The notes below the pieces were generated by a model. The model searched no databases and had not been told where the DNA came from. It was given only the letters and a program-made list of their open reading frames with translations. Below, piece by piece: positions 1-31,882 of a stretch of 32,005 bases of DNA (position 1 is its first letter; the number at the start of each line of letters is the position of its first letter). Source of the stretch: an uncultured virus (IMG/VR IMGVR_UViG_3300013936_000020) (lineage: Duplodnaviria > Heunggongvirae > Uroviricota > Caudoviricetes). The stretch is taken from the IMG/VR virus record IMGVR_UViG_3300013936_000020. The stretch is one strand, 5' to 3'. The position numbers and the translations under genes are program-made.

Positions 1-353
1 CCAACGTGCAGCCGAAGGAACTTCTCGGTCGTGTATTCGATGTCGTGGACTACGAGATGCGGAAGAACGGCAAGGGCGAGGTGAACTGGGTGAAGCTGCT
101 CATCTGTTACGAGGAGGTGGATGCCGACGGCGTGCTGACAGGCAAGAAGGCGATGTGCGAGGTGCATGGCGACTACCACGGCATCTACACCTATCTGCTT
201 GCTGCGGAGAAGGCTTTCGGTGGGAAAGGAGCGATATTGCCAATAGAGGATGCGGAGATTGTCAACTCCTGCGGATACATCTTCAAGGACTCCACCAACA
301 TGATGAGATACTTCGAGGATTTTATTAACAAGAATAGAAATAATAGATTATGA
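1..353 (+). CDS. Hypothetical phage protein, 5'-truncated by the window edge
   Basis: Frame is open from the window start (..NVQPKELL); the stop overlaps the next ATG (ATGA coupling at 350-353). Confidence 0.6.
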   Translation, partial: NVQPKELLGRVFDVVDYEMRKNGKGEVNWVKLLICYEEVDADGVLTGKKAMCEVHGDYHGIYTYLLAAEKAFGGKGAILPIEDAEIVNSCGYIFKDSTNMMRYFEDFINKNRNNRL

Positions 354-1117
354 TTGCAAAGAATTATATCGAGCTGCCTACTGAAGGCTTAGTAAGGGGC
401 AGTATCTTGGACGAGGGGAATGCCGTGACCGTGTATCTGGACGTACACAACGAGGAGATTCCTGTGTTTAGTGGAGACGAGACGGAATCGGAGGATGTAT
501 CGTACAAAGAGGTCAAGGTAGGCTATCCTGTGAGGGTGGAGAAGCCTCTGACGGAGGCGAGACTGGTCAACGCTGCCTTGCAACTCGCTTACGGCTTGCG
601 TGACAACGATGATGTCTCTCGCTTTAACGCCGACATGTCGGTAAAGATTACCTCTGATGCAAACGATGATGACGTGACAGAGTATCTTGGTTTCTTGCAG
701 TGGGTGAAGCTGGAGTATGCGAAGGCGACAGGAAGCGTGAGCGATCTTGATGCAGCCAAGCAACATGTGCTGTCGGAGATAGAGGCTTACGACACGTCAT
801 CTGCCGTAAACGGATTCAAGCTCAATGGTCAGACTGTATGGCTTGACAAGGCTACTCGTGTGGGACTGATGAACTCTACAAACATCGCCAAGTCAATGGG
901 AAAGGAAAGTACGGATTTGTGGCTTGGGAACGTTAAGATTGAGGTGGGATGCGACAAGGCTATTCAACTGTTGTCTGCCTTGGAGATGTACGCACTTGAG
1001 TGCTTCAACGTGACTGCTGCACACAAGAAGGAAATAGAGGAGTTGGCTACCATCGACGAGGTGGATGCATACGACATCACAATGGGCTATCCTGCACAGT
1101 TGGAAATGAAGATTTGA
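350..1117 (+). CDS. DUF4376-like tail-fibre-associated protein
   Basis: C-terminal IEAYDTSSAVNGF..WLDKATRVGL..ALEMYALECFNVTAAHK..GYP pattern typical of this Bacteroidales phage family; position upstream of lysis. Confidence 0.7.
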   Translation: MIAKNYIELPTEGLVRGSILDEGNAVTVYLDVHNEEIPVFSGDETESEDVSYKEVKVGYPVRVEKPLTEARLVNAALQLAYGLRDNDDVSRFNADMSVKITSDANDDDVTEYLGFLQWVKLEYAKATGSVSDLDAAKQHVLSEIEAYDTSSAVNGFKLNGQTVWLDKATRVGLMNSTNIAKSMGKESTDLWLGNVKIEVGCDKAIQLLSALEMYALECFNVTAAHKKEIEELATIDEVDAYDITMGYPAQLEMKI

Positions 1118-1174
1118 GTTATATTAAGGGAAGTTAGGGGAAATTCCCTCTGATTTCCCCTAATAAAAAAAGAA

Positions 1175-1741
1175 ATGATTATGTGGTTATTGAGTTTGAT
1201 TTCATTTCTCCTGCTTGGGGGATATTTGTTTTTGTTGGCTATGCGCTTCGGCATTCCAGACATGGTGAGTGATACTTACTATCAGTTGCAAGGTTGTGTT
1301 GGTAGCGAAGTGATAGGCGACAAGCGTAAGCGAAAATATGGTGCTGTTTTCACTGCCATCATGATTCTCGTTGGAGGCTTGATGATGGTGTGTTTGCTTG
1401 ATAGCGAGCAAGGTGTTCAGTGTCTCGCCTTTACAGGTTGTGCAGGCTTGTGTTTTGTTGGCATCGCTCCTAATTATATAGACAGGGATGTATATCCGAT
1501 TCACAAGGGCGGTGCTATCGTGGCGGCTGTCGGTTGCGTGGGTTGGTGCCTGAGCATCTGTCTGTGGATTACATTGGCTGTCGGAGTTGTCTATCTGTTA
1601 TATCTGCTATATGCGGATATTACGAGGAAAGCAAACGATATGTGGCATATCAGTAACGCCACTCCTAAGTTCCATCCTTGGTATTGGGCGGAGGTGACAG
1701 GCTTCCTTGATGTATTTCTTACTTATTGGATATGCGTATGA
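1175..1741 (+). CDS. Multi-pass membrane protein
   Basis: 188 aa with ~5 hydrophobic segments; A-rich Bacteroidetes-type initiation region. Confidence 0.75.
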   Translation: MIMWLLSLISFLLLGGYLFLLAMRFGIPDMVSDTYYQLQGCVGSEVIGDKRKRKYGAVFTAIMILVGGLMMVCLLDSEQGVQCLAFTGCAGLCFVGIAPNYIDRDVYPIHKGGAIVAAVGCVGWCLSICLWITLAVGVVYLLYLLYADITRKANDMWHISNATPKFHPWYWAEVTGFLDVFLTYWICV

Positions 1742-2007
1742 GAGGGTTTTGTAAAAGATTGTTTACGTTTGACATGCGAGATGTCATCGGTGTTTTTTGT
1801 TGGTTCTTCTTGAGCGTTGTAATAGGTTTTCCTGCTTTTCCTATTATGGTTGTCAGGGAGGTGTATCAGTGGAAACGATACAAGTTGAAGAAGTTCGAGT
1901 GGGAGGATGTCATAAGGTATGGTATCATTATCGTCCTTGGCAGCATTGGAAGTCTTTACTTAGAGAATATACTCTTTGGCATAAGGCATGTGTTTCATTT
2001 TACTTAG
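1726..2007 (+). CDS. Small membrane protein (start may be 1738)
   Basis: Two hydrophobic segments; overlaps the upstream stop. Confidence 0.6.
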   Translation: MDMRMRGFCKRLFTFDMRDVIGVFCWFFLSVVIGFPAFPIMVVREVYQWKRYKLKKFEWEDVIRYGIIIVLGSIGSLYLENILFGIRHVFHFT

Positions 2008-2041
2008 TTACTTTATTAGGTTTTAAGTTTTTATGTTTTTG

Positions 2042-2071
2042 AAGGCTGCTGTCCGTGAGGATGGTAGCCTT
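2042..2071 (+). terminator. GUGA-loop hairpin, probable intrinsic terminator
   Basis: AAGGCTGCTGTCC-GTGA-GGATGGTAGCCTT followed by TGTTT. Confidence 0.6.
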
Positions 2072-2205
2072 TGTTTATATACATCAAGTTTTTTCAGTGT
2101 CGTTTCAGTATTTTTCAGTGTTTCATTCCTACAAATGAAACTGTTTCCTTGTAGAAATGAAACTATATTTTTCTGATTTTACAAGAGAGTTCTTGATTTT
2201 CTTGC

Positions 2206-2213
2206 TAACTTTG
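2206..2213 (+). promoter_or_regulatory. Bacteroidetes primary-sigma -7 element
   Basis: TAACTTTG matches TAnnTTTG, 30 nt before ATG 2244; no clear TTTG at -33. Confidence 0.6.
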
Positions 2214-2243
2214 CGGGCGGTAATATCAATAACTTAAATTTAT

Positions 2244-2756
2244 ATGAGTATGAGTAAGGAAGATGAGGAAAACCTCTTGCGATGGATGCAAGGGAAAGAT
2301 GTCAGTGAGATGATGGCTTTGCTTATGAAGCATGGCAATCGGTATTCACGCAGGATATTGAGTTTCTTTCGGTGGTTCTGTAAGTGGATGCCTGTAATCA
2401 TCATGGTGTTTCACGCATACGGAATATGGGATTTCGCACAGCATCCAAGGGAGATGTTCGAGCCTTACGAGGAGAACTTGCCTTGTTACCTTTTTATTTA
2501 TTTTATGCTCTACATCTTGCCGATGGTAATTATCTTGGCAAGCAGATTCTTCTACCTCTGTTGGCGTTATAGGATTCCGTTCTTCTATTTCTTCGGCATC
2601 AATGCCGCCCACATCGTGGAGTGGAGCTGGTACACGACCAACGACATGGTGGAGTCCTGCTATACAGTAATGGTAGTTACCGCCATGTTCTACGTGTATG
2701 GCTTTGCGGACATGTTCATCAACAAGACAAAGATAGGGCGGAAGATTTGCGCATAG
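2244..2756 (+). CDS. Membrane protein (about 4 TM), first gene of an uncharacterised cassette
   Basis: 170 aa with aromatic-rich hydrophobic helices; has its own promoter. Confidence 0.75.
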   Translation: MSMSKEDEENLLRWMQGKDVSEMMALLMKHGNRYSRRILSFFRWFCKWMPVIIMVFHAYGIWDFAQHPREMFEPYEENLPCYLFIYFMLYILPMVIILASRFFYLCWRYRIPFFYFFGINAAHIVEWSWYTTNDMVESCYTVMVVTAMFYVYGFADMFINKTKIGRKICA

Positions 2757-2795
2757 AGCTTGTTTTTGTGAGAATTTCGTAAAATCAAAGAGAAC

Positions 2796-3134
2796 ATGAA
2801 GAATATATTGAATTATAAATTACTTGGCGCAGCCTTGAAGTCTTTGAGCGATGCTTGCTTCAAGGCTGACGAGCAACAGAGAAATGGAGAGAAGGTAACG
2901 GCTTGTGGAATGAGCGACGAGGATTTGGATAGGTTGTGCGACATCATACCAGACATGCTCAACCCGATGATGAGCACGGAGGAGGTCAAGGAGAAGCTGC
3001 ACGTGTCGGACGCTACATTGAACAGAATGGTGTGTCGTGGGGACATACCGAATGGAGAGTGCAAGAAGCGAGGGCATACGAGATACTGGAAGAAATGGGA
3101 CATCCTACATTTCTTGAAGAAGAGGGGCAAGTGA
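2796..3134 (+). CDS. HTH (AlpA/HTH_17-like) DNA-binding protein
   Basis: C-terminal MSTEEVKEKLHVSDATLNRMVCRGDIP..RYW motif. Confidence 0.75.
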   Translation: MKNILNYKLLGAALKSLSDACFKADEQQRNGEKVTACGMSDEDLDRLCDIIPDMLNPMMSTEEVKEKLHVSDATLNRMVCRGDIPNGECKKRGHTRYWKKWDILHFLKKRGK

Positions 3135-3277
3135 TTGCTTCTCTTTTTTGTTTCCATTTCTTTCCAGTTCTTCCAACATTGGAAAGGATGATACTACCTA
3201 CTATCACCTTAAATCTCTGATAATCAACCACTAAAAGAAATTGTGAGCGAGTTACATTCTATCTCGCATATTCAGAG

Positions 3278-3285
3278 TACCTTTG
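3278..3285 (+). promoter_or_regulatory. Bacteroidetes -7 promoter element for the 3346-5562 operon
   Basis: TACCTTTG, no consensus -33; upstream inverted repeat 3184-3210 and downstream palindrome GTAACGTTAC 3291-3300. Confidence 0.6.
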
Positions 3286-3345
3286 CATCCGTAACGTTAC
3301 ATAGTGTTAGTTAATATTTAAGGATAACTTAAAAAGATTGTTTTT

Positions 3346-4074
3346 ATGGAAATGACAGATGCAAAGGTCGTGGAGAAGAAAATCTACGAGGAAGGAAAGA
3401 AGCACGACGAGTATGCTTCTAAGGGTGTAGCTGGCACAGGCTTAGGCTTGGGCATAGCAGGCACAGCTCTCGGTCTTGGTGCTTGGTTGCTTGGCAATCG
3501 CAGTCCGTTCGGTTCAATCGGCGGTAATATGCCAGACAACGTGAATATCAACACCTATGGAGGTATGACAGGAAGCAATTCCGCTCCAACCGCATTGCAA
3601 GTGATGGAGAAGGAGAACGCCGACGAAGTGGCTCTCTTGGAGAAGATGTACGGTTTGAAGCTCGACACAGCCAACAAGTTCTATCAGATGCGTGAAACGG
3701 ACATCGCCGAGAAGTTCAGCATGTACAAGGGCGGCGTGGAAGCATTGAACGCAGAGAACCGCCGTGCCGAGCGTGCTGAGTTCGGTCTTTACAAGTCTCA
3801 GGTAGAGGCAGACTTCGGTCTGTATAAGAATCAGCGAGACCAGTTTGATGCCTTGAGCGCAAAGTACAACGAGCTTGACAAGAAGGTCGCTGTAATGGAA
3901 GCCCTAACTCCTTACAAGGAGAAACTGATGATGGCTTACGTGAACGAGAAGACCTGTCGCTGTATCTACGGTGTCGTAGGCTTGCCAAACGCAACCACTA
4001 CCGTATTGGAGGGTGCAAACCCTTTCGGATGCAACTGCGGACGTACGACTACGACAACTACAACAGGAGCGTAG
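3346..4074 (+). CDS. Conserved phage protein with glycine-zipper hydrophobic segment and coiled coil
   Basis: GVAGTGLGLGIAGTALGLGAWLLG; internal repeats (AEFGLYKSQ/ADFGLYKNQ); heptad-like region; Cys-containing tail. Confidence 0.85.
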   Translation: MEMTDAKVVEKKIYEEGKKHDEYASKGVAGTGLGLGIAGTALGLGAWLLGNRSPFGSIGGNMPDNVNINTYGGMTGSNSAPTALQVMEKENADEVALLEKMYGLKLDTANKFYQMRETDIAEKFSMYKGGVEALNAENRRAERAEFGLYKSQVEADFGLYKNQRDQFDALSAKYNELDKKVAVMEALTPYKEKLMMAYVNEKTCRCIYGVVGLPNATTTVLEGANPFGCNCGRTTTTTTTGA

Positions 4075-4112
4075 TAAAAAGAAAGTCTGCAAAGGCTAAG
4101 AAGAAATGAGTT

Positions 4113-4153
4113 GGTGAGGGGTGTTTGCCCTCGTTGGCGGATGCCCTCTCACC
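4113..4153 (+). other. Long intercistronic RNA hairpin (stabiliser or partial terminator)
   Basis: GGTGAGGGGTGTTTGCC..GGCGGATGCCCTCTCACC with G.U pairs that favour the + strand. Confidence 0.6.
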
Positions 4154-4193
4154 TTCTCTACAACATATCACCAACTTAAAAGATATATTGATT

Positions 4194-4682
4194 ATGATGA
4201 ACTTTGGAAACAGTCCATTGTTGGACGTTGGCACGACACAGCAACCGCAGACTATGGATGCGGAATTGAGAAATGCTTACGAGGCATTGCAAGAGAAGCG
4301 AGCCTCCATCAACATGCAGGTAAGGCAGTCTCCCACCCCACTCTGGGACGAGATAGACAAGATAGAGGACAGCTTGACTGGAGCACAGAGACAGTACTTG
4401 ATGAATAACAAGGAATATGCCGATAGCTCGGTATATGTGTCGAAGATAGTGCAAGACGAGATTCTGCGTATCGTGAGACCTCGTATAGAAGCGACCGTGC
4501 AAGGACAGGAAGCGTTGAAGAAACATCTATCCTTGGCTAAGAGGCTAAGGAAGGAGGCTACGCAAGCCGAGGAGCAAAAGAACGCCATCCGTGACGAGTA
4601 CTTCGACAACTACGCCGACAAGATGAGCTATGCAGAGTTCATCGCCATGAAACAAGGTAAGAAAGGAGGGGCAAAGAAATGA
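4194..4682 (+). CDS. Helical hypothetical protein of the cassette
   Basis: Start reassigned to ATG 4194 (AT-rich leader, downstream of the hairpin); coupled to the next gene. Confidence 0.8.
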   Translation: MMNFGNSPLLDVGTTQQPQTMDAELRNAYEALQEKRASINMQVRQSPTPLWDEIDKIEDSLTGAQRQYLMNNKEYADSSVYVSKIVQDEILRIVRPRIEATVQGQEALKKHLSLAKRLRKEATQAEEQKNAIRDEYFDNYADKMSYAEFIAMKQGKKGGAKK

Positions 4683-5110
4683 AGATAGTGGAACTGAAAG
4701 AGAAATTGCTTGCGTCCATCGACCTTTGGGCTGACGCAAGGATTGACGACATGGTTAAGGGCAACCCGATGATGGCTGTACCTTCCGTATATATGAAGCG
4801 AGCGGCGCACAATGTAATTGCAAAGAACAAAGAAAAGTGGAGCAAAGGTATTGATGACGCCGCCTTGTTTGTCACAGATGAGAACGGAGATGTAAACGCA
4901 GACACCATATTTGACGACATGATGCAGATGCTCAAATCCGTGCAAGACTTCCATTTTGACGTTGGTTTCATTCACGGACACATCAATGATGGTATCATAA
5001 GCATTGATATGCCCGACAACATACTGACGGCGATATTCCTCGGAAGCAAGCGAAGCATTAGTATTACTCCAGATGATTTCTTGGAGTTAAAGACATTGAT
5101 AACAGAATAG
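4679..5110 (+). CDS. Hypothetical protein of the cassette
   Basis: 143-aa ORF with ATGA overlap to the upstream gene. Confidence 0.8.
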   Translation: MKIVELKEKLLASIDLWADARIDDMVKGNPMMAVPSVYMKRAAHNVIAKNKEKWSKGIDDAALFVTDENGDVNADTIFDDMMQMLKSVQDFHFDVGFIHGHINDGIISIDMPDNILTAIFLGSKRSISITPDDFLELKTLITE

Positions 5111-5133
5111 TATTACTTTTAACGATTGATAAG

Positions 5134-5562
5134 ATGAAAAAGGTATTCGAAAGAGTTTTGGCTTGTGATGATATACAAGCGGTAAAGAACGTTGTATCCA
5201 TCATGGCAGAGTCATGTGATATTGGGATGAACGACTCCTGCGCCCTGGAAATGATGAAACAGGTGCAGGGAGAAATCGGTGCGTGCCACTACGACGAGGA
5301 AATGGCAAAGATGCACCTTTGTCTAATCGGCAACATACATTGCATCGACGCTGCGAAAGATTTCTTTTGTAAAGTAAAGAACGACAAAATTAACGTTTGG
5401 GACTGGTGTGTGCTTTGGGGAGAGATGGTTAATAGAAATGCTACGAAAATTCGTTCATGGTTTCCAAACATCAGAGAAATAGACTTTGAGAAAAAGATAT
5501 TAGATGAGTGTATATCATTCCTCGAAAGCGGTCAGATGCCTTTTTACGACCTAAAATTGTGA
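5134..5562 (+). CDS. Hypothetical protein, last gene of the cassette
   Basis: 142 aa; HYDEEMAK..INVWDWCV pattern; Cys-rich. Confidence 0.8.
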   Translation: MKKVFERVLACDDIQAVKNVVSIMAESCDIGMNDSCALEMMKQVQGEIGACHYDEEMAKMHLCLIGNIHCIDAAKDFFCKVKNDKINVWDWCVLWGEMVNRNATKIRSWFPNIREIDFEKKILDECISFLESGQMPFYDLKL

Positions 5563-5577
5563 TTTATTTGTCGTTGT

Positions 5578-5609
5578 CTTGTGAGTCTCGATTTATTTTG
5601 CTATCTTTG
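5578..5609 (+). promoter_or_regulatory. Promoter upstream of the lysis module
   Basis: CTTG-N20-TATCTTTG (-33/-7). Confidence 0.6.
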
Positions 5610-5651
5610 CGGAGTAAACCGAGACTTATATTTTTATTCAGGATAACGACA

Positions 5652-6209
5652 ATGATTCAGACAACGACAGATGTAGTAGGCAACACTGGAACAAGGTTTC
5701 TTGGTGGGCTATTGAGCGCAGAAATGATAGCGGTATTCTACGATATGCGGTGGATGCTGTTATTGATAGCTTTGTGCGTGATTGCTGACTTTCGGTATGG
5801 CTGGGGTGAAAGCTCACGGCGGTATTCGGAAGCAGAGAAAGCAGGTGATAAACTCTTGATGGTTCAATATAAGTGGCGAACGTCGAGGGCTGTGCGTAGA
5901 ACGGTGAACAAACTTATAGACTATTGCGTGTGGATAGTCGTTGGCATGGCTATTGGCATGGCTATTTTAGAGCCGATTGGCGTCAATCACATTTTCGGAG
6001 GTGTTGGAGCAACTGCAATCGCCGTAGTGTGCGAAGCGAAAAGTTTCTTCGGACATTTCTTCTATTTACACGGAGTAAACGTAGAGCAAAAGACTATTAC
6101 TGGGTTTATGAAAGCTATCATCGTGGCACTCGCTAAATCAAAGAACGAGACATTCGGAGAGGCATTGGAGGATGGATTGGAAAAGGAGGTACAAGATGGC
6201 AAATCATAA
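5652..6209 (+). CDS. Phage holin (Bacteroidales type)
   Basis: About 3 TM segments; ADFRYG..SRAVRRTVNKLIDY motif; directly upstream of the endolysin; start reassigned to ATG 5652. Confidence 0.8.
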   Translation: MIQTTTDVVGNTGTRFLGGLLSAEMIAVFYDMRWMLLLIALCVIADFRYGWGESSRRYSEAEKAGDKLLMVQYKWRTSRAVRRTVNKLIDYCVWIVVGMAIGMAILEPIGVNHIFGGVGATAIAVVCEAKSFFGHFFYLHGVNVEQKTITGFMKAIIVALAKSKNETFGEALEDGLEKEVQDGKS

Positions 6210-6729
6210 GATATTAGCTCCGTTCATTCTTTCCCACGAAGGAGGATTCTCTAATGACAAGAACGACCATGGAGGCGCAACGATGAAAGGTGTTACGCTT
6301 GCGACCTTCCGTTCGGTTTACGGACAGGGAAAGACCGTGAACGACTTGAAGAAGATAACCACGGAGCAATGGAACAACATCTTCAAGAAGTACTATTGGG
6401 ACAAATGCAATGCTGATTTGATAGACAATCAGAGCATTGCCAACATGCTCGTCGATTTCGCCTGGCACAGTGGTGTATCTAAGGCTACGGAGGTTATTCA
6501 GAAGATTGTAGGTGTTACCGCTGATGGTATTATTGGCAGGGTAACAATCGGGGCAATTAATGGCTTTAATCGTGGCGATAAAGTATTATTCGACTTGCTA
6601 AAACAAGTTCGCATGGTGTATCTTCGCAGCCGAAAGAATTGGAAATATTTCAAGAACGGTTGGACTACAAGGGTAGAGTCTATCAAGTATGGCTCACTCA
6701 CGTATTCGGGTAAAACTATAAAATGTTGA
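6196..6729 (+). CDS. Endolysin, glycoside hydrolase family 108 with peptidoglycan-binding segment
   Basis: EGGF..D.GG.T..GVT catalytic motif; ADGIIG..T; C-terminal GWTTRV. Confidence 0.92.
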   Translation: MANHKILAPFILSHEGGFSNDKNDHGGATMKGVTLATFRSVYGQGKTVNDLKKITTEQWNNIFKKYYWDKCNADLIDNQSIANMLVDFAWHSGVSKATEVIQKIVGVTADGIIGRVTIGAINGFNRGDKVLFDLLKQVRMVYLRSRKNWKYFKNGWTTRVESIKYGSLTYSGKTIKC

Positions 6730-6733
6730 TGAT

Positions 6734-7171
6734 ATGAGTATAAGATTTGATTGGTGGAAATGGTTGGTGATATGCGCCGTTTCCTTCTTCTGTCTCTCGT
6801 TCTTCTGTAGATGCACGACGACTAAATATGTGCCTGTTACAGAGTATCGGGACAGAGTTGTAAACAAGACGGATAGCTTCTTGAAGCTGGATTCCGTCTA
6901 TGTTCACGACAGCGTATCGGTTTACATTCGAGGCGACACAGTCTTTAAGGATAAGTTTCGACTCCAGTACAAAGACCGATACATCGTAAGAAACAAGTCG
7001 GACACTTTAGTTGTGCGTGATTCGATACCATATAGAGTAACAATCGAGAAGCAATTATCGAAGACTGACAAGGCTTTTATAAACATAGGGAAAATAGCCT
7101 CCGTCCTCCTTTTCGTAGGAGTGCTTGCCTTCATCGGTTGGATATACTGGAGATTGAAATTACACAAATGA
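6734..7171 (+). CDS. Probable unimolecular-spanin-like lipoprotein
   Basis: N-terminal signal ending in Cys, beta-rich DSVYVHDSV repeats and a C-terminal TM helix; follows the endolysin. Confidence 0.65.
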   Translation: MSIRFDWWKWLVICAVSFFCLSFFCRCTTTKYVPVTEYRDRVVNKTDSFLKLDSVYVHDSVSVYIRGDTVFKDKFRLQYKDRYIVRNKSDTLVVRDSIPYRVTIEKQLSKTDKAFINIGKIASVLLFVGVLAFIGWIYWRLKLHK

Positions 7172-7240
7172 TGATACTGGTAAATTCTTTTTCATTTTTA
7201 TTATTTTGTTAGGTTTTTGTTGATTAGTTAGTTGTGAAAA

Positions 7241-7278
7241 CAAAAAGGGGCGACCGTCCGAGAAGGATAGCCGCCCCT
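7241..7278 (-). terminator. Terminator between the convergent lysis and early operons
   Basis: AGGGGCGGCTATCC..GGACGGTCGCCCCT followed by a T-run on the - strand. Confidence 0.7.
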
Positions 7279-7306
7279 AATCATATATGAATAATGCACA
7301 GAAATA

Positions 7307-7795
7307 TCATTCCTCGTCCGCTTGCTCGAATCTGATGCCATACTTATTTACGAAGTATTGCTCTCTTTTCGTACGTCTCGTCTGAGAGTCATAGTACATG
7401 ATTGCATCGTCCACGGTGTCGTAAAAGTAATTATGCTTCCTTGCCAAGTGAAACATTGCCTGTTGTACTTTCTTTGGCGTTATGCAAACCTTGTATTTCG
7501 TCTCTTTCCTCATTCCGCTACGGACACGCCACGACTCGATTCTTCGTATAGTCTTAATCTTCTCGCCCAGCTTAGAGAGGTCTCTTTTTTTCAGTCCCTC
7601 TTGTCTTCGATTGTAGACATAAGCATTGATTCTCGCCTGAGCCTCTTCCGTATGCTTTAGATTGTTCTTTCTTGCGCACCTGATAATTGATGACTTGGCA
7701 AAGCCTGTTGCTTCATGAATCTCCCTTGAAGACATCGTGGGGTAAAGTTCCAGGACCTTCTCCGTCAGTCCTGGGATTTTTGATTGCCACGGCAT
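7307..7795 (-). CDS. Basic hypothetical protein with N-terminal HTH-like segment
   Basis: SSREIHEATGFAKSSIIRCA; K/R-rich; last gene of the leftward operon. Confidence 0.65.
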   Translation of the reverse strand: MPWQSKIPGLTEKVLELYPTMSSREIHEATGFAKSSIIRCARKNNLKHTEEAQARINAYVYNRRQEGLKKRDLSKLGEKIKTIRRIESWRVRSGMRKETKYKVCITPKKVQQAMFHLARKHNYFYDTVDDAIMYYDSQTRRTKREQYFVNKYGIRFEQADEE

Positions 7796-7801
7796 AGGTT
7801 A

Positions 7802-8395
7802 TCATTTAAGACCAGTAGAACCATACCCACCGTCACCTCGGTCTGTTTCGGATAATTCCTCAGTTTCCTCAATTTTAACATGAAGGATAGGTATGATTAT
7901 CATCTGTGCGCAACGATCACCAACATCATACATACGTGGAGGTAAAGGCTTGCAACCTTCTGCGATGTCTGGATAGTTCTCGTTTCTCCCAGGAAATGTC
8001 ACTTCTTGTGTCGAGAAATCCGTTTGCACAGAACCACTATAATCTCCAGGCTCAAAGCCGTTATCAATGATAGTTTTAGGCTCGCTTACGTTTGGCTTAT
8101 CGACAACCAACAATGTAGGTCTGAACTTAGCGAACACCTCACCTCTGTAATGGCAGTCCACCACGCCTACCGAGTTGCTTAGAGTCAAATCCTTCTTACA
8201 GATTGATGAGCGAGGGAACAACAATCCTACATATCCTTCGGGTATCTCGAAGGCAAGCCCGAAGCCGTACACGATATTGCCTTCTTCGTCAAACACTCGA
8301 CTTGTTGCCGTCAAGTCAAATCCTGCATCTGTTGGGTGTGCTTTCGTAGGCACTACCGCATTCTCTGTCAATCTCTTAATCTTTACTTTTACCAT
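7802..8395 (-). CDS. dut: Trimeric dUTPase with a large insertion
   Basis: Motifs AGFDL, PRSS, GVVDCHYRGE, GDRCAQ, RGDGGYGSTG. Confidence 0.95.
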   Translation of the reverse strand: MVKVKIKRLTENAVVPTKAHPTDAGFDLTATSRVFDEEGNIVYGFGLAFEIPEGYVGLLFPRSSICKKDLTLSNSVGVVDCHYRGEVFAKFRPTLLVVDKPNVSEPKTIIDNGFEPGDYSGSVQTDFSTQEVTFPGRNENYPDIAEGCKPLPPRMYDVGDRCAQMIIIPILHVKIEETEELSETDRGDGGYGSTGLK

Positions 8396-8416
8396 TTCTT
8401 TATTATGATTTAAAAA

Positions 8417-8671
8417 TTACTTTTTGTTTCTATACTGTCCGTGCAGGAATTTGAGAACATTAATCATAGCTAACTCATTCATTAGCTTCTGCTCATCGAA
8501 TATAGTCGTTACAGTTGCCTCGTCTCTGTTGAGGTCGTACAGCAATCCATCTGTTGGCTGATTAACAATATTCTCCAATTTCATCTTCACGACACCCTCA
8601 CAAGTGTTAAACAACACGCAACCTTCCTCGAAAGCCTTGCGCTGAACTTCTATTATATCTTTCTTTTCCAT
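8417..8671 (-). CDS. Hypothetical protein
   Basis: Tiles into the leftward operon. Confidence 0.6.
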   Translation of the reverse strand: MEKKDIIEVQRKAFEEGCVLFNTCEGVVKMKLENIVNQPTDGLLYDLNRDEATVTTIFDEQKLMNELAMINVLKFLHGQYRNKK

Positions 8672-8673
8672 AT

Positions 8674-8838
8674 CTAAAATGCTTTATCCAGTTCCTTAAC
8701 CGCCTTGCGTCTGTCAGCGTTTCCTATTCGCTTCCACCACAAGGTATCTTGATGCTTTCTTTTATTGTCGCTCAGTCCGAGCTGACCAGCACGAAACCAA
8801 TAGGCTATCATGCCGAAAATGTCACGTTCCTTGCTCAT
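8674..8838 (-). CDS. Small hypothetical protein (54 aa, not in ORF track)
   Basis: ATG 8838 to TAG 8674 fills the gap exactly (MSKERDIFG..). Confidence 0.5.
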   Translation of the reverse strand: MSKERDIFGMIAYWFRAGQLGLSDNKRKHQDTLWWKRIGNADRRKAVKELDKAF

Positions 8839-8841
8839 AAT

Positions 8842-9078
8842 CTATATTTTCTTAAGTTTTAACATCTGCCCAGAAGAAGGACCAGCAGGGTTCTTGAAGA
8901 GATACTTTTTCCCCTTGAGCCAAGGAAACCTTTTATAGAACCTCTTCCACTGAGCCTTACTTGCTTTCAACCTTGGTACTCGTGTCGGTGAATACGAGCC
9001 ATCCTTCTCCATCAATTCCAACCCCATCAAGTCATAGTACGAGTATCCCAAGCTAATACGTTTCCTCTTATGTTTCAT
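8842..9078 (-). CDS. Basic hypothetical protein
   Basis: Tiles into the operon. Confidence 0.55.
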   Translation of the reverse strand: MKHKRKRISLGYSYYDLMGLELMEKDGSYSPTRVPRLKASKAQWKRFYKRFPWLKGKKYLFKNPAGPSSGQMLKLKKI

Positions 9079-17477: not shown

Positions 17478-18170
17478 CTATTTGCTGATTATTTCTTCAA
17501 TGAATTGATTTGCGAGGATAACACGCTCTTCCATAAGTTTGATGTCCTCCTCGTTACGTTCAATGTCCGCCCAGTGGATAGGCTTTGAGAGCCAAGGGCA
17601 ATACGTAATGAAGATTCCGCTCTTTGCGTTTGTGCAGCTCATTTCAGCCATTATCTGCCAATAGTACTTCGGCTCTGTGTCTTTGAGTGAGGCTGCATCG
17701 TGGATATAAGTACGGTACTTCATGTAAGTATTGAGGTTCGGACACTTGACTTCAAGAATGCGAATATCCTTACCATCACGACCATATATTGCACCATCAG
17801 GACTTGCGGCGAAATGAGGTATCGTGTCGTGCTTGCAGGAAGAAAGCTCTACAATCTCGCTTTCTGGAAATTCCATATTCTGAAAAAGCCTAAGTGCTTC
17901 ATCTTCCTGTTCCGATCCCCACTGCATCGCCTTGGTGGTGAAAGATGTTTGGTCGAGGTAGTCTTGGAAGGCATCATCGTCATTCAAGAAATCGGGATTA
18001 AAGAGGCGTTCGGCTGCGACCTGCATAAGATACGACTTAGCCGTGTCACTCCAAACTTCATCTTTCTTGCGACCAGACTTCATAATGTCGGCTACCTTGC
18101 TCCCACAAATTGAACCGATGCGACTACGAAACCATTCCAACGAACGTTGCTCAATACCCTCTGCTATCAT
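17478..18170 (-). CDS. YqaJ / lambda-exonuclease family recombination nuclease
   Basis: QRSLEWFRSR, AMQWGSEQE, ASPDG, LEVKCP, YYWQ. Confidence 0.92.
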   Translation of the reverse strand: MIAEGIEQRSLEWFRSRIGSICGSKVADIMKSGRKKDEVWSDTAKSYLMQVAAERLFNPDFLNDDDAFQDYLDQTSFTTKAMQWGSEQEDEALRLFQNMEFPESEIVELSSCKHDTIPHFAASPDGAIYGRDGKDIRILEVKCPNLNTYMKYRTYIHDAASLKDTEPKYYWQIMAEMSCTNAKSGIFITYCPWLSKPIHWADIERNEEDIKLMEERVILANQFIEEIISK

Positions 18171-18708
18171 TTGCCTTCCTCCTTCTTAGCCGCTGCATCA
18201 GCCTTTGCAGCCTCGGCAGCTTTGGCAGCGAGATTTTCTTTCTTCTCGCTTTCAAGGTTGTCAACATACTCAGGAGCGAAAGCATCAATATCCAAGTCTT
18301 GGACGTCTGACGTGTTGGTGTTGATTACAGCTTGGTCGAAAGTAACAGCGTTCTGCATTTCAATGGACTTAGGTGCAAATTTCAATATTGATTTGAGAAC
18401 CGTCTTTTGCGCCATAGCATCAAAATCTGATTTCCATGGGGAATTGAAACCAGCACGGAAGGCTTGGCTGAACTTTGTTGCGTGAGCCTTAACCTTGTCA
18501 ATATCCCAATAAGCAACCTTTGTAAAGCCATTCAGAAGCTCGAACTTAGCCATATAGCCGATAACCTTGTCAGACTTCTTTTGTTTCTTGTCGAAAACGT
18601 AATCTTCGTCGAACTCGTCACCCGAAATATACTCACCTTCGTGGACTGGAGCTGCAAGAATCTTCTTGAATTGACCGCTGCGTTGGCAAAGTTGCAATAA
18701 ACCTAAAT
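18167..18708 (-). CDS. recT: RecT single-strand annealing protein, exon 2
   Basis: LGLLQLCQRSGQ..PWKSDFDAMAQKTVLK..PKSIE; splicing to exon 1 gives a 279-aa RecT. Confidence 0.92.
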
Positions 18709-19516
18709 CACTAACCCACCGATTTACCATTTCAGTGGAGTGGACTATCTCTTCACCATTACAGGTGTCTCGCACTTGGGCGTGTGATAAATCCACGCCT
18801 ACTCGGTTACACTCATCACCGATAGTCTCTACACTCCAATATTTCCAAACAAATCCTCGAAAATGTTTTCTAACTCCTTTAAGAGCCTTACAGAGCCTGT
18901 CGTTCCCACATTGAAAATGTTCTGCTGCATCTTTTATAGAGCGGAAATAGCAAAAGCTAAATTCATCCTCTGTGTACCCATAAATGGCTTTATAAATAGG
19001 AGGATGCGGAATTTTTCCTTTATTAGCTTTCGATATTTTTATTCTTGACTCAAAAGTATGTTTCTTTCCAAGATTTGCTACCCTCAGTTTTTGACGTGTT
19101 TCTTCGCTTACCGAATGTCCGATTTTTGGTCCAGTAAGTTGTGCTAACTTGACTTTCTTCTCTTTATCGGTTTTTCTTTCCCACTGTGCTCGTGCGCACT
19201 TTGCAAGATAAGCACGTTCATTGTCGGAAGGATGATAACCTTTAGAGCCCTTGCCTCCAATAGTCATATTATAAGATGCAGAAAGTTTGTTTATCCAGAA
19301 AATTTCCTTTGAATCAAGCTCTTCTTTTTGGCATTCCTCTAAAACCGAAAATGTGAAATTCCCAAATCCGTATTTTTTTAAAGCTCTACAGATAAGCCTA
19401 TTCCCTTTGGTGCTACAAGGACATCTGTGCTCCATCATTCTACGATGTAAATCCACACTTTGCCCGACGTATATATCCCCTGTAATATTATTAGTTAAAG
19501 AATAAATACCAATCAT
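18167..19516 (-). CDS. Intron-encoded GIY-YIG homing endonuclease with NUMOD repeats, open in frame into recT exon 2
   Basis: GIYSLTN..IYVGQS..R; NUMOD3-like HSVSEETRQKL/HTFESRIKIS; NUMOD1-like FRSIKDAA..GFVWKY; no stop before 18167. Confidence 0.9.
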   Translation of the reverse strand: MIGIYSLTNNITGDIYVGQSVDLHRRMMEHRCPCSTKGNRLICRALKKYGFGNFTFSVLEECQKEELDSKEIFWINKLSASYNMTIGGKGSKGYHPSDNERAYLAKCARAQWERKTDKEKKVKLAQLTGPKIGHSVSEETRQKLRVANLGKKHTFESRIKISKANKGKIPHPPIYKAIYGYTEDEFSFCYFRSIKDAAEHFQCGNDRLCKALKGVRKHFRGFVWKYWSVETIGDECNRVGVDLSHAQVRDTCNGEEIVHSTEMVNRWVSDLGLLQLCQRSGQFKKILAAPVHEGEYISGDEFDEDYVFDKKQKKSDKVIGYMAKFELLNGFTKVAYWDIDKVKAHATKFSQAFRAGFNSPWKSDFDAMAQKTVLKSILKFAPKSIEMQNAVTFDQAVINTNTSDVQDLDIDAFAPEYVDNLESEKKENLAAKAAEAAKADAAAKKEEGK

Positions 19517-19638
19517 TGTTTAAAAATATTAAAGCACGGTATTGCCCTTTATTGGAGGGTTTCACCGTTAGCCATACATAGTATGACACCGTTTTTTCTT
19601 ACGTTCACGAGATTTTACTTGACCATAACTTTTGGTTT
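18709..19638 (-). mobile_element. Group I self-splicing intron (IA-like, 930 nt) in recT
   Basis: Exon UUGGCU pairs with IGS GGUCAA including a U.G at the 5' splice site; terminal G 18709; P7 strands AGAGACUA (18823-18830) and GAUAGUCC; P3 UCUCGU/GCGAGA; P4/P5 CGGUGAAACCCU..AGGGCAAUACCG; two extra hairpins between P7 and P3; splicing restores QFQIG-Y-LGLLQL. Confidence 0.93.
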
Positions 19639-19936
19639 AGCCAATTTGAAACTGTGCCTTCTTTCCGTAAGGGATGATGTAGCACTGACCCAATGTAGGG
19701 ATAACCTGCAACTGCATCGTGGCTGCAACCATCGCTGCTCCGATAATGCTCATTGGCTCTGCGTTGCGAAGTTGTGGGTTTCCGTTGGCTACACTGATAA
19801 CCGAACTCATAAAGCTGTTAGCCATCTGTGGGCTATTCCAAACCTCGTTAAGTTTACCAACAACGGCAGGAGAGTGCATCAACTCTCCCAACGACATACC
19901 AGTATTTTGTTGCTGCGTTGTAACTTGTGTTGTCAT
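19639..19936 (-). CDS. recT: RecT single-strand annealing protein, exon 1
   Basis: SIIGAAMVAA..L..LGQCYIIPY..AQFQIG; unspliced reading stops at the TAA created by the exon/intron junction. Confidence 0.92.
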
Positions 19937-23699: not shown

Positions 23700-24362
23700 C
23701 TAAAAGTACTTCTTTTGAAACTTAGACCGTAGATAGTTCACGACAGCATCGCCTGACTTCAAGAAACCATCCTCAATGAGCATTGCCACCTGTCTTTCAA
23801 GCTCAAAGTACTCACGTTGTTTCTCTTCTGTTCCATACTCGTTGCGAATCATGTGCTCGTGCTTACCAACGATAATCCAATTAAGTCCTTTTGCGATAGT
23901 CTGCATAGTCTTTTGCATTTCGTTTGACTTCACGATAGTTCTAACAGCGGAAGCGAGTTTCTTGTATGCCTCTCCTGCTTCGTTACGATAACTTAGCATT
24001 TGGTCTGAAACAAATTTCAATACCTTAACCTTGAATGTCGGGCTTAGCCACATAGCAAAGTCAATAAAGAGGAGTGGGTGCATCCAAGTGCCACCATTTT
24101 TTCCTCTAACAGAAACATAAGCAGGATTCTTTTTATCAAGATTTTCTTCACTAATCAAAGCTTTCAAATACTCCTGTGTTGATTTGAGGCTCAGATAGTT
24201 ATCAATGTCCTTCTTTTTATAATCCCCATTTTCGTGGGTATTTAAATTTTCTGGACTATTCCACTGCCTAAGCAAATCTGTTGCGTTGAACATTCCGTCT
24301 TTTGTCCGCTGCTCAACTTTTAAATTGTCAAGCGGTCTTATCATTACCTGATTGGTGTTCAT
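23700..24362 (-). CDS. KilA-N domain protein (antirepressor-like)
   Basis: QRTKDGMFNATDL..RGKNGGTWMHPLLFIDFAMWLSP.F. Confidence 0.9.
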   Translation of the reverse strand: MNTNQVMIRPLDNLKVEQRTKDGMFNATDLLRQWNSPENLNTHENGDYKKKDIDNYLSLKSTQEYLKALISEENLDKKNPAYVSVRGKNGGTWMHPLLFIDFAMWLSPTFKVKVLKFVSDQMLSYRNEAGEAYKKLASAVRTIVKSNEMQKTMQTIAKGLNWIIVGKHEHMIRNEYGTEEKQREYFELERQVAMLIEDGFLKSGDAVVNYLRSKFQKKYF

Positions 24363-31225: not shown

Positions 31226-31882
31226 CTATTTCTTTTGTAACACTGATGGTAAATATTTCTCACTATACTTCTTTCTTAAATATTCAATTACTTGGTCGTA
31301 TGAGTGAATAAAACCATCGTTGATAAGCATAGCAACCTGACGTTCCATGTTGAATAACTCGTATTGCTTGCTCTCTTCACCTTGTTTATTGCGCATTTCG
31401 TGTTCGTGCTGACCGAACACTACGTAATTGATAGCCTGTGCTATTTTGCACATAGCCACAGGCATAAACTTCTTGCTTACTATCTTTTGCACTGCTGCAC
31501 CAAGCTCCCTATATGCGTCCCCTGCATCGTTTCTGTACTTCAACATCTGGTCGTACACAAACTTGATAACCTGCACCTCGAAACGAGGATTGAGCCACAT
31601 AGCAAACTTAACAAACAATATCGGGTGCATCCAAGTACCACCATTATTACCACGAGTTTTCAAATACGCAGAATTTTGCGTATTTAAATTTTCCTCTTCC
31701 ATCAAGGCAGAAATAAATTCCTTGGTATTGTCGTTATCAAAGAATTTGGTAATCTCCTTCTTCTCTCCACTTGCATCATTCCATTGTTTGAGCAAGTTTG
31801 TAGCATTGAACATACTATCCTTCGTTCTCTGCTCGACCAAAAAGTTACCCATTGGTCTCTTCATTACTTGGTTTGTAACCAT
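31226..31882 (-). CDS. KilA-N domain protein, paralog of 23700-24362
   Basis: QRTKDSMFNATNL..RGNNGGTWMHPILFVKFAMWLNP.F. Confidence 0.9.
   Translation of the reverse strand: MVTNQVMKRPMGNFLVEQRTKDSMFNATNLLKQWNDASGEKKEITKFFDNDNTKEFISALMEEENLNTQNSAYLKTRGNNGGTWMHPILFVKFAMWLNPRFEVQVIKFVYDQMLKYRNDAGDAYRELGAAVQKIVSKKFMPVAMCKIAQAINYVVFGQHEHEMRNKQGEESKQYELFNMERQVAMLINDGFIHSYDQVIEYLRKKYSEKYLPSVLQKK

What the first reader, a model, noticed from the sequence alone, without database searches (positions are those of the whole stretch)
2244..5562. Self-contained, regulated six-gene cassette of unknown function between tail and lysis genes
Seen: a hairpin-bounded unit with two promoters. Unit 1 encodes a ~4-TM protein and an HTH protein. 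Unit 2 (promoter lacking -33, inverted repeat AAGG.TGATA-N8-TATCACCTT at 3184-3210) encodes a 242-aa glycine-zipper/coiled-coil protein, then a strong hairpin (4113-4153) that could raise that gene's mRNA level, then three soluble proteins. I recognise no enzyme or virion domain. Inference: a membrane sensor/regulator pair controls an oligomeric membrane-active or structural complex, for example host-envelope or dormancy modification, superinfection exclusion or defence. I recall similar cassettes in gut phages but know of no assigned function.
Basis: partly seen in the sequence, partly recalled or inferred. Interest (0 to 1): 0.78.

Follow-up and report, generated by a model that had tools for sequence, protein, structure and literature searches.

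The report
Conserved unknown-function cassette beside phage lysis genes
A six-gene block in a Prevotella-type temperate phage is a real, separately regulated module whose core genes also occur in many crAss-like gut phages, including the prototype crAssphage; its function is unknown, and the best guess is that it helps control or carry out cell-envelope disruption at lysis.

Summary
Six + strand genes lie at 2244-5562: A (3-4 transmembrane helices), B (HTH_17), C (242 aa), D, E and F. Bacteroidota-type -7 promoter motifs sit upstream of A and C. A conserved inverted repeat lies upstream of the C promoter. Strong hairpins lie at 2040-2073, 4113-4153 and 5580-5630.

None of A, C, D, E or F matches Pfam, PHROGs, NCBIfam or PADLOC.

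The refutation test fails, because the genes do co-occur elsewhere. B-C-D-E are kept in about 80 related phages of Prevotella, Segatella and Leyella. C-D-E also recur in distant crAss-like lineages, in p-crAssphage (gp61, gp60, gp59) and in Bacteroides phage BF1-TP2. crAss001 lacks the module, so it is accessory and not core virion machinery.

C is predicted to have a short N-terminal tail, one glycine-zipper membrane helix, a single 126-residue helix and a Cys-bearing tail. D, E and F have no signal peptides.

Lysis genes (holin-like, endolysin, unimolecular-spanin-like) flank the module on either side, or sit between B and C.

Best reading (0.4): an accessory lysis or envelope module. Rivals: a coiled-coil fibre with helper proteins (0.2), and superinfection exclusion or a moron (0.15). 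Function is not shown.

The parts
2040..2073 (+). Terminator-like hairpin that closes the preceding genes; upstream boundary of the cassette
   Evidence: 15-pair stem, -24.7 kcal/mol, z -6.25
2206..2213 (+). TAACTTTG, a Bacteroidota-type -7 promoter motif upstream of A
   Evidence: read directly
2244..2756 (+). A: polytopic membrane protein, 170 aa, 3-4 hydrophobic helices
   Evidence: No family hit. Found in 78 of 80 related loci. Only weakly like the multi-TM proteins at the same position in crAss-like loci (hhalign P 1.1e-3, probability 20%)
2796..3134 (+). B: small DNA-binding protein with a C-terminal HTH_17 domain
   Evidence: PF12728, E 2.3e-8. Found in 80 of 80 related loci. A homologue lies upstream of C in 27 of 51 distant loci
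3115..3150 (+). Hairpin followed by a T-run, overlapping the stop codon of B; terminator-like
   Evidence: -18.0 kcal/mol, z -2.6
3184..3226 (+). Operator-like region: inverted repeat AAGGATGATA-N8-TATCACCTT, then a second box CTGATAATCA (3217-3226)
   Evidence: The inverted-repeat core is kept in 68 of 72 unique family upstream regions.
3278..3285 (+). TACCTTTG, the -7 promoter motif of the C-F unit, 60 nt before the ATG of C
   Evidence: 72 of 72 in the family
3346..4074 (+). C: 242-aa protein. Charged N-terminal tail (1-26), glycine-zipper hydrophobic helix (27-48), Gly/Asn-rich linker, one long helix (83-208) carrying F-G-L-Y-K repeats, and a conserved Cys-bearing tail
   Evidence: The family has 3178 clusters at 90% identity and 242 representatives at 50%
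4113..4153 (+). Strong hairpin between C and D
   Evidence: -33.4 kcal/mol, z -4.5. Nearly invariant within the family. Hairpins of other sequences sit at the same place in several crAss-like lineages
4194..4682 (+). D: 162-aa helical protein with no signal peptide and a conserved W-D-E-I-D motif
   Evidence: Homologous to BF1-TP2 gp39 (E 6e-20) and p-crAssphage gp60 (profile E 1e-42)
4679..5110 (+). E: 143-aa protein whose start overlaps the stop of D. Predicted as a helical hairpin plus a small beta-sheet
   Evidence: pLDDT 79. Homologous to BF1-TP2 gp37 (E 2e-35) and p-crAssphage gp59 (E 1.5e-8)
5134..5562 (+). F: 142-aa protein rich in Cys and His, with no signal peptide
   Evidence: Found in 45 of 80 related loci. 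Has invariant Cys and His columns. Weakly like the DUF7841 proteins that follow E elsewhere (hhalign P 8.5e-4), but has no Pfam hit itself
5580..5630 (+). Hairpin at the downstream boundary. It encloses the -7 motif TATCTTTG (5602-5609) of the lysis genes
   Evidence: -26.0 kcal/mol, z -5.5
5649..7171 (+). Adjoining lysis cassette: G, a holin-like protein with 3 hydrophobic segments (5649-6209); H, a GH108 endolysin (6172-6729); I, a unimolecular-spanin-like protein (6734-7171)
   Evidence: Glyco_hydro_108, E 1.2e-24; endolysin phrog_315, E 3.4e-36; I has an N-terminal hydrophobic, Cys-bearing leader and a C-terminal TM helix

Best explanation
The block is an accessory module that belongs functionally with the phage's lysis region.

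Shown:
- Six co-oriented genes form two transcription-unit-like blocks, A-B and C-F, each preceded by a Bacteroidota -7 promoter motif.
- The core B-C-D-E (with F or a DUF7841 protein after E) is inherited together across very different Bacteroidota phages.
- crAss001, whose virion has been solved, lacks the module.

Predicted:
- C is a single-pass inner-membrane protein with its N-terminus in the cytoplasm. Its 126-residue helix would be about 19 nm long if it is a straight alpha-helix. That helix and the Cys-bearing tip would lie in the periplasm.
- D, E and F stay in the cytoplasm.
- A is a polytopic membrane protein.

Inferred:
- B acts on the family-specific operator TGATA-N8-TATCA to switch on the C promoter.
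- The hairpin after C makes C more abundant than D-F.
- C builds an envelope-spanning assembly late in infection, and its cytoplasmic partners time or modulate membrane and envelope disruption. Functionally this would resemble a large-periplasmic-domain holin with cytoplasmic regulators, or an inner-membrane spanin subunit.

No binding, topology or lysis phenotype has been shown.
For: Co-inheritance:
- tblastn finds A in 78, B in 80, C in 80, D in 80 and E in 79 of 80 related IMG/VR loci.
- In 51 loci fetched with a 35%-identical homologue of C, iterated profiles find C in 51, D in 48, E in 49 and B in 27.
- p-crAssphage gp61, gp60 and gp59, and BF1-TP2 gp40, gp39 and gp37, are C, D and E in the same order.

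Accessory status:
- crAss001 has no homologue of C. Its endolysin gp30 is followed directly by gp31 and the capsid gene.
- cr85_1, from the same subfamily, carries the module at exactly that junction.
- Passages found in the crAss001 structure paper PMC10172136 list no virion component matching these genes.

Link to lysis genes:
- 106 of 142 loci have at least one recognised lysis-gene family in the fetched flank.
- Within the window's own family the lysis genes lie downstream of the module (for example 32 loci 'A B C D E F Ldc I') or upstream (6 loci 'Ldc G I A B C D E A', 6 loci 'G I A B C D E A').
- In two unrelated lineages the lysis genes sit between B and C: L040 and L088.

Topology of C:
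- The hydrophobic helix reaches a TM-grade Kyte-Doolittle score in many homologues.
- Over 30 homologues there are 84 K/R residues on the N-side flank against 39 on the C-side flank.
- Conserved Cys at positions 204 and 229 lie beyond the long helix.
- The AlphaFold2 model has helix 83-208 at pLDDT 85-93.

Regulation: the promoter motif, operator and post-C hairpin are conserved as described.

Late expression: in a lineage of 90-178 kb contigs, D carries an in-frame TGA at the invariant Trp codon. The passages read in preprint 10.1101/2021.08.26.457843 describe that pattern for late and lysis genes.
Against: - No sequence or fold similarity to any holin, antiholin or spanin family. Pfam, PHROGs and NCBIfam give nothing for C, D, E or F, and PDB profile searches give nothing significant.
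- The window already has a complete-looking lysis set (G, H, I), so C is not needed as a spanin.
- No outer-membrane lipoprotein partner is encoded in or after C.
- 36 of 142 loci show no recognised lysis gene nearby. These are mostly the 90-178 kb TGA-recoded lineage.
- In p-crAssphage the annotated lysozyme gp80 is about 25 kb away.
- In crAss001 a head-fibre gene (gp29) also sits inside the lysis cassette. Adjacency to lysis genes is therefore weak evidence in these phages.
- Late-operon ends are common insertion sites for unrelated genes.
- The module always lies downstream of fibre genes as well, and a hairpin-boosted, highly expressed long coiled coil equally suits a structural protein.
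Confidence: 0.4

Rival explanations
1. C is a virion fibre or whisker: a trimeric or dimeric alpha-helical coiled coil attached to the head or tail through its N-terminal part. D, E and F/X are assembly helpers or adaptors. A and B are unrelated neighbours.
For: - Depositors annotate p-crAssphage gp61 and its crAss-like homologues as 'putative tail protein'.
- The module follows fibre genes in every lineage seen: the window's DUF4376 fibre, L088's 1314-aa protein, L093's 733-aa fibre-like protein, and p-crAssphage gp62-67.
- A 126-residue helix with a small conserved tip is fibre-like.
- The post-C hairpin suggests that C is made in excess.
- Accessory head fibres with patchy distribution are described for crassviruses, and one (crAss001 gp29) sits among lysis genes.
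Against: - The 22-residue uncharged Gly/Ala/Leu/Ile stretch is TM-grade and has K/R-rich N-side flanks, which is unusual for a soluble fibre.
- No PHROG tail or head family matches.
- The C-terminal tip is among the most conserved parts of the protein, unlike receptor-binding tips.
- A dedicated HTH gene and a family-specific operator travel with C.
- The 'tail protein' label carries no stated experimental basis in the records seen.
Confidence: 0.2
2. The cassette is a moron-type module for superinfection exclusion or other protection of the infected or lysogenic cell. C would block incoming phage DNA or ejection proteins in the periplasm. B would give it expression independent of the late operon.
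For: - It has its own promoters, terminator-like hairpins and a linked regulator.
- It contains membrane proteins.
- It is accessory and shared by unrelated phages.
- Its position at the end of the late region is typical of such genes (general knowledge of lambda bor/lom and the cor genes, recalled).
Against: - No PADLOC hit for A, C, E or F. B hits only a generic small-HTH model and D has one marginal hit (E 0.0082).
- The core is present in crAss-like genomes inside the late structural and lysis block, co-oriented and tightly packed with it.
- D carries recoded in-frame TGA in one lineage, which argues for late rather than early or lysogenic expression.
- Three cytoplasmic partner proteins are not expected for simple exclusion proteins.
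Confidence: 0.15
3. It is a membrane-tethered cytoplasmic platform. If C has the opposite topology, or only associates peripherally with the membrane, then C, D, E and F and the DNA-binding protein B would organise a late intracellular process at the membrane, such as assembly or genome handling.
For: - D, E and F lack signal peptides and co-vary in presence with C.
- D and E overlap or abut, as for subunits of a complex.
- The N-terminal tail of C is short (about 26 residues), which is little surface for three partners.
- F has invariant Cys and His columns that suggest metal binding in the cytoplasm.
Against: - The K/R bias places the N-terminus inside and the long helix outside.
- Conserved Cys in the tail of C suit an oxidising compartment (inference).
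- No DNA-handling or assembly domain is detected.
Confidence: 0.1

Closest known systems
p-crAssphage (Carjivirus communis) gp61-gp60-gp59-gp58, and Bacteroides phage BF1-TP2 gp40-gp39-gp37-gp36
   Same: These are true homologues of C, D and E in the same order. C against gp61 is 35% identical (E 1.7e-27), and against gp40 43% (E 1.4e-48). D against gp39 scores E 6e-20, and E against gp37 E 2e-35. A DUF7841 protein follows E in both phages.
   Different: All are uncharacterised: they are annotated 'putative tail protein' or 'hypothetical'. The window has F in place of a recognisable DUF7841 protein. The window adds A, B and the TGATA operator. Neither A nor B homologues were found in the fetched flanks of these two phages.
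T4 holin T with its regulators RI and RIII (class III holin and lysis inhibition; recalled knowledge)
   Same: C is similar in size to T (242 aa against about 218 aa). Both have a short cytoplasmic N-tail, a single membrane helix and a large periplasmic part with conserved Cys. Both have small cytoplasmic proteins encoded alongside. The gene lies downstream of tail-fibre genes.
   Different: No sequence relationship: Pfam, which holds a holin T family, gives no hit at E <= 0.1. The periplasmic part of C is predicted as one long helix, not a globular domain. No RI-like periplasmic partner was identified.
Lambda Rz-type inner-membrane spanin subunit (recalled knowledge; spanin survey PMC6139136 seen only in a search listing)
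   Same: An N-in membrane anchor, a periplasmic helical rod, Cys residues near the far end, and a position next to the endolysin in many loci.
   Different: No outer-membrane lipoprotein partner gene is embedded in or after C. A unimolecular-spanin-like gene (I) is already present. C is about 90 residues longer than Rz. There is no family hit.
crAss001 gp27 and gp28 ('lysis regulatory protein' and 'holin' in the record)
   Same: These are single-pass TM plus coiled-coil proteins in the same genomic slot, between the fibre genes and gp31/MCP. gp28-like genes co-occur with the module in many crAss-like loci.
   Different: Not homologous to C (hhalign probability 0.1%). crAss001 lacks C, D and E altogether.
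Coiled-coil phage fibres (P22 gp26 needle and phi29 gp8.5 head fibre, recalled; crAss001 gp21 and gp29 head fibres, PMC10172136 passages)
   Same: A long alpha-helical shaft, a small terminal tip, accessory and patchy distribution, and a location among fibre genes.
   Different: C has a TM-grade hydrophobic helix and no similarity to any of them. No virion evidence exists for C.

Membership tests
HTH_17 (PF12728) DNA-binding proteins - gene B | Match to the Pfam model above its gathering score | tested here: met
   E 2.3e-8, 34.6 bits against a cut-off of 27, residues 58-110. The crAss-like counterpart L087 B scores E 3.3e-8
Two-component spanin, inner-membrane subunit (Rz-like) - gene C | N-terminal membrane anchor followed by a periplasmic helical domain | tested here: met
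   Prediction only: AlphaFold2 helices 27-48 and 83-208; K/R flank bias of 84 against 39
Two-component spanin, inner-membrane subunit (Rz-like) - gene C | A cognate outer-membrane lipoprotein gene embedded in, overlapping or directly following the gene | tested here: not met
   no + strand ORF of 20 aa or more with a lipoprotein-type leader lies within or after C. D has no signal peptide
Two-component spanin, inner-membrane subunit (Rz-like) - gene C | Sequence match to a described spanin family | tested here: not met
   No Pfam, PHROG or NCBIfam hit for C
Class III holin (T4 T-like) - gene C | Sequence match to the holin T family | tested here: not met
   No Pfam hit at E <= 0.1. That the Pfam library holds this family is recalled
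Class III holin (T4 T-like) - gene C | Lethal, endolysin-releasing membrane lesion upon expression | not testable with these tools
   Needs expression with an endolysin in a host
DUF7841 (PF25223) - gene F | Match to the Pfam model | tested here: not met
   F has 0 Pfam families at E <= 0.1. The positional counterparts in L087, L089 and L112 match at E 6e-28, 3e-33 and 7e-23. Profile-profile comparison of F against X gives P 8.5e-4 with probability 24%, which is only a hint
Known anti-phage defence systems (PADLOC-DB) | Match of any cassette protein to a defence-system model | tested here: not met
   B matches only the small HTH model mad1 (E 4e-5, a generic HTH). D has a marginal hit (E 0.008). 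A, C, E and F have none
Phage virion (tail or head) proteins - gene C | Match to a structural PHROG or Pfam family, or presence in purified virions | tested here: inconclusive
   No PHROG or Pfam match. The 'putative tail protein' labels in records come without stated evidence. No virion proteome is available for a phage that carries the module
Unimolecular spanin (T1 gp11-like) - neighbouring gene I | N-terminal lipoprotein-type leader plus a C-terminal membrane helix in a protein of about 130-150 aa next to the endolysin | tested here: met
   hydrophobic segments at 7-25 and 116-134. The leader carries Cys residues (the window's is not a canonical lipobox; crAss-like members have ...LLSGC or ...FIAC leaders). 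Found in 102 loci. Function not tested

The most novel reading that the evidence does not exclude
The module, which includes p-crAssphage gp61-gp58, is a previously unrecognised envelope-spanning device of Bacteroidota phages. It would consist of a periplasm-crossing membrane rod with cytoplasmic partners and its own regulator, and it would set when or whether the infected cell lyses. It would be a non-homologous counterpart of lysis inhibition, and could contribute to the delayed-lysis, carrier-like behaviour reported for crassviruses.
Probability: 0.15. Interest if true: 0.85.

Novelty: new variant of a known kind. Interest (0 to 1): 0.62.

Why it matters
The C family alone has 3178 clusters at 90% identity in public data. 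It occurs in prophages of Segatella copri, Prevotella and Leyella, and in several crAss-like lineages including the prototype crAssphage. These are among the most abundant viruses of the human gut, yet every member is annotated 'hypothetical' or, without stated evidence, 'tail protein'.

Two results give a concrete target for experiments on how Bacteroidota phages manage lysis, which is poorly understood. First, four to six of these genes travel together with a dedicated promoter, operator and regulator. Second, they keep company with lysis genes in several different gene orders.

Cultured systems exist for such tests: BF1-TP2 on B. fragilis, and lysogens S. copri HDD04 and L. stercorea MSK.21.24.

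Tried and rejected
Family libraries: nothing for A, C, D, E or F in Pfam, PHROGs, PADLOC or NCBIfam.

PDB sequence profiles of C, D and E: no hit better than E 0.07.

ESM Atlas:
- C returns only uncharacterised viral clusters, one auto-named DUF5320.
- F returns PPR-repeat look-alikes at 0.92, which is a lead at most, suggesting a helical repeat.

Fold searches with the E model:
- BFVD gives no match at E <= 0.001; the best rows are uncharacterised crAss-like proteins.
- VIA-align against 48,161 PDB chains gives a best Z of 7.3, covering only the N-terminal helical hairpin, which is generic.
- I did not search with the C model, because a single long helix cannot give a meaningful match.

Complex prediction of C + D + E, with C as the partner: verdict 'no answer', score 0.00. 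This is not evidence either way.

RNA evidence: no RNA holder was listed for window 1-9000, so no reads were laid.

Whole genome: none is held for this window.

Longer fused forms of C: none scored, which is weak evidence.

Metaproteome supplements of PMC9523058: I searched for short motifs of the C and D families and found no relevant peptide. It is not known whether those two phages carry the module.

Literature searches found nothing on these genes: 'DUF7841', 'BF1-TP2', crAssphage with gp61/gp60/gp59, and Bacteroides phage with holin, spanin or lysis cassette.

Earlier-findings look-ups returned nothing.

Searches that failed on input:
- The P0203 seed found no viral loci.
- Alignment A1 was too divergent for a genome scan, so the single protein was used instead.

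Rejected idea: crAss001 gp27 as a homologue of C (hhalign probability 0.1%).

Full report
**What is in the window**

The window is part of a temperate phage of the Bacteroidota type.
- It carries an integrase (25925-27133), a repressor-like gene, a RecE/RecT-type recombination module, a dUTPase and a methyltransferase.
- It uses TAnnTTTG-type promoter motifs.
- Seven genome contigs carry 50-79% identical copies of gene C. They are labelled Prevotella sp., Segatella copri (including the complete chromosome of strain HDD04) and Leyella stercorea, plus one MAG labelled Bacilli, which may be a binning error.

On the + strand the order is as follows:
- a DUF4376 tail-fibre-like gene (350-1117);
- two small membrane proteins (1175-1741 and 1726-2007);
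- A (2244-2756), with 3-4 hydrophobic helices;
- B (2796-3134), HTH_17, E 2.3e-8;
- C (3346-4074), D (4194-4682), E (4679-5110) and F (5134-5562);
- a holin-like protein G, a GH108 endolysin H (E 1.2e-24), and I, which has an N-terminal hydrophobic Cys-bearing leader and a C-terminal membrane helix, as in unimolecular spanins.

**Check of the observation**

- The -7 motifs sit in the spacers before A (2206), C (3278) and G (5602).
- The hairpins are real and far stronger than shuffled controls: 2040-2073 at -24.7 kcal/mol (z -6.3), 4113-4153 at -33.4 (z -4.5), and 5580-5630 at -26.0 (z -5.5).
- The inverted repeat at 3184-3210 is the only exact TGATA-N8-TATCA in 32 kb.
- In the window's phage family, 72 of 72 unique upstream regions of C keep a -7 motif a median of 58 nt before the ATG. 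68 of 72 keep the inverted repeat.
- Aligned views show two further TGATA-like boxes between the repeat and the promoter.
- As RNA the repeat is weak, so a protein-binding site is the better reading.
- That B is the binding protein is inferred only from its constant position next to the site.

**Are the genes known?**

- A, C, D, E and F match nothing in Pfam, PHROGs, NCBIfam or PADLOC.
- Profiles of C, D and E match no solved structure by sequence.
- C belongs to a large family: 3178 clusters at 90% identity and 242 representatives at 50% identity. Where a source names them at all, the name is 'hypothetical'.
- The alignment of 30 members shows these features in order: a charged N-tail ending in E-Y-A-S-K-G; a 22-residue uncharged Gly/Ala/Leu/Ile stretch; a Gly/Asn-rich linker with a P-x-N-V-N-I-N motif; two or three F-G-L-Y-K...R-D repeats; and a tail T-C-R-M-I-x-G-x-V-V-L-P-x-T-P-T with nearly invariant Cys204, Pro214 and Cys229.
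- AlphaFold2 gives helix 27-48 and a single helix 83-208 at pLDDT 85-93. The rest is of low confidence (mean 64.6).
- Over the 30 homologues the N-side flank of the hydrophobic helix holds 84 K/R and the C-side flank 39. By the positive-inside rule this places the N-tail in the cytoplasm and the long helix outside.
- E is modelled at pLDDT 79 as a helical hairpin plus a small sheet. Fold searches return only uncharacterised phage proteins or generic hairpins.
- D is helical, with an invariant W-D-E-I-D region.
- F has several invariant Cys and His columns.

**Do the genes co-occur elsewhere?**

- In 80 related IMG/VR loci (about 75% identity in C), tblastn finds A in 78, B in 80, C in 80, D in 80, E in 79 and F in 45. 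These genomes are syntenic relatives, so this alone says little.
- Fifty-one loci fetched with a 35%-identical homologue of C are informative. Iterated profiles find C in 51, D in 48, E in 49 and B in 27.
- Some of those loci are crAss-like. Portal and crAss-type capsid genes flank the module.
- Another group consists of 90-178 kb contigs in which D has an in-frame TGA exactly at the invariant Trp codon.
- In annotated records, p-crAssphage gp61, gp60 and gp59, and Bacteroides phage BF1-TP2 gp40, gp39 and gp37, are C, D and E.
- The gene after E in crAss-like loci, in p-crAssphage (gp58) and in BF1-TP2 (gp36) is one family, Pfam DUF7841. The window's F is only faintly similar to it (hhalign P 8.5e-4).
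- The 3-4-TM proteins just upstream of B in crAss-like loci are faintly similar to A (P 1.1e-3).
- The firm core is therefore B-C-D-E. A membrane protein before it and a fourth soluble protein after it are recurrent positions.

**What kind of module is it?**

Three facts constrain the answer.

1. It is accessory.
- crAss001 has no homologue of C, and its gp30 endolysin abuts gp31 and the capsid gene.
- cr85_1, from the same subfamily, has the module inserted at that junction.
- The passages I read of the crAss001 structure paper (PMC10172136) list the virion parts, and nothing corresponding to these genes is among them.

2. Its steady neighbours are lysis genes, in changing order.
- I labelled 142 loci with profiles for the holin-like G, the two endolysin types (GH108 'H' and DUF5675 'Ldc'), the spanin-like I and the crAss001 gp28-like protein. 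106 loci have at least one of these in the fetched flank.
- In the window's family the lysis genes lie after the module in most loci, before it in 15 or more, and between B and C in L040.
- In crAss-like loci they lie before it (L087) or after it (L110-L119), and between B and C in L088.

3. C has its own conserved promoter, and a hairpin directly after its stop codon.
- The hairpin recurs with unrelated sequences in several lineages (L087, L089, L096, L108, L110, L127, L130, L133, L144).
- This fits more C than D-F being made.

**Against over-reading the link to lysis genes**

- 36 of 142 loci show no lysis marker nearby. These are mostly the TGA-recoded lineage.
- The annotated lysozyme of p-crAssphage is about 25 kb away.
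- crAss001 keeps a head-fibre gene inside its lysis cassette.
- The module is also always downstream of fibre genes.
- The window already has holin-like, endolysin and spanin-like genes.
- No lipoprotein partner for C is encoded.

**Mechanism I commit to (0.4)**

I read this as an accessory envelope and lysis module.
- C accumulates in the inner membrane late in infection. A rod about 19 nm long and a Cys-bearing tip reach across the periplasm.
- D, E and F act on its cytoplasmic side.
- A is a further membrane component.
- B switches the C promoter through the TGATA operator.

Together they would time or assist envelope disruption. This would work like, without being related to, a large holin with cytoplasmic regulators or an inner-membrane spanin subunit. 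Only the gene content, the conservation, the regulatory motifs and the predictions are shown. Topology, binding and any effect on lysis are inferred.

Rivals:
- a coiled-coil fibre with helper proteins (0.2);
- superinfection exclusion or another moron function (0.15);
- a membrane-tethered cytoplasmic platform (0.1).

The remainder is unassigned.

**What did not help**

- The complex prediction gave no verdict.
- No RNA runs were listed.
- No fused forms of C were found.
- No literature on these genes was found by four searches.
Supplementary tables of the recoding preprint might name the gene families it calls 'spanin' or 'transmembrane'. I could not check whether any is the C family.

**Verdict**

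The module is real, abundant, uncharacterised and experimentally approachable. Its function remains open.

Noticed in passing
L094:6724-7203, L099:6748-7227, L104:6963-7442, L120:6526-7005: In a lineage of 90-178 kb viral contigs, the D homologue has an in-frame TGA exactly at the invariant Trp of the W-D-E-I-D motif. This points to TGA-to-Trp recoding in these phages. One C homologue (L115) has an in-frame TAG where the other members have Tyr.
   Followed up: partly
window 18167-19936 (- strand): The RecT-like annealing protein appears to be split. A 99-aa ORF (19637-19936) matches the N-terminal part of the RecT profile. The 449-aa ORF (18167-19516) is a GIY-YIG/HNH homing-endonuclease-like N-half fused to the C-terminal part of RecT. 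This may be an intron or a homing-endonuclease insertion.
   Followed up: no
L001-L080 and L138-L143 (the window's phage family): The endolysin type is swapped between close relatives: GH108, DUF5675, or a 478-aa DUF5675 fusion in L003. The whole lysis cassette lies either upstream or downstream of the A-E module.
   Followed up: partly
L087:9570-12458 and L112:10480-12125: The crAss-type major capsid genes in these loci are interrupted by HNH or GIY-YIG homing-endonuclease ORFs.
   Followed up: no
L096:1891-2595: Reverse-transcriptase fragments lie next to a tail-protein gene, which suggests a diversity-generating retroelement. The ORF is broken in table 11.
   Followed up: no
window 23700-24362 and 31226-31882 (- strand): Two paralogous 220-aa proteins match the same PHROGs (phrog_129 'transcriptional regulator' and phrog_6095 'amidase') in the early region.
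   Followed up: no
L082 (BF1-TP2) 4701-6406: A three-gene island lies between the endolysin and the C-D-E module of BF1-TP2: a DnaA_C-like HTH, a histidine-kinase-like ATP-binding protein and a DUF4325/STAS-like protein, as annotated in the record.
   Followed up: no
L136:5911-6201 and L135, L131, L137: Several distant loci carry C genes with internal deletions or lost N-terminal parts, while D and E stay intact. These may be assembly variants or decaying copies.
   Followed up: no
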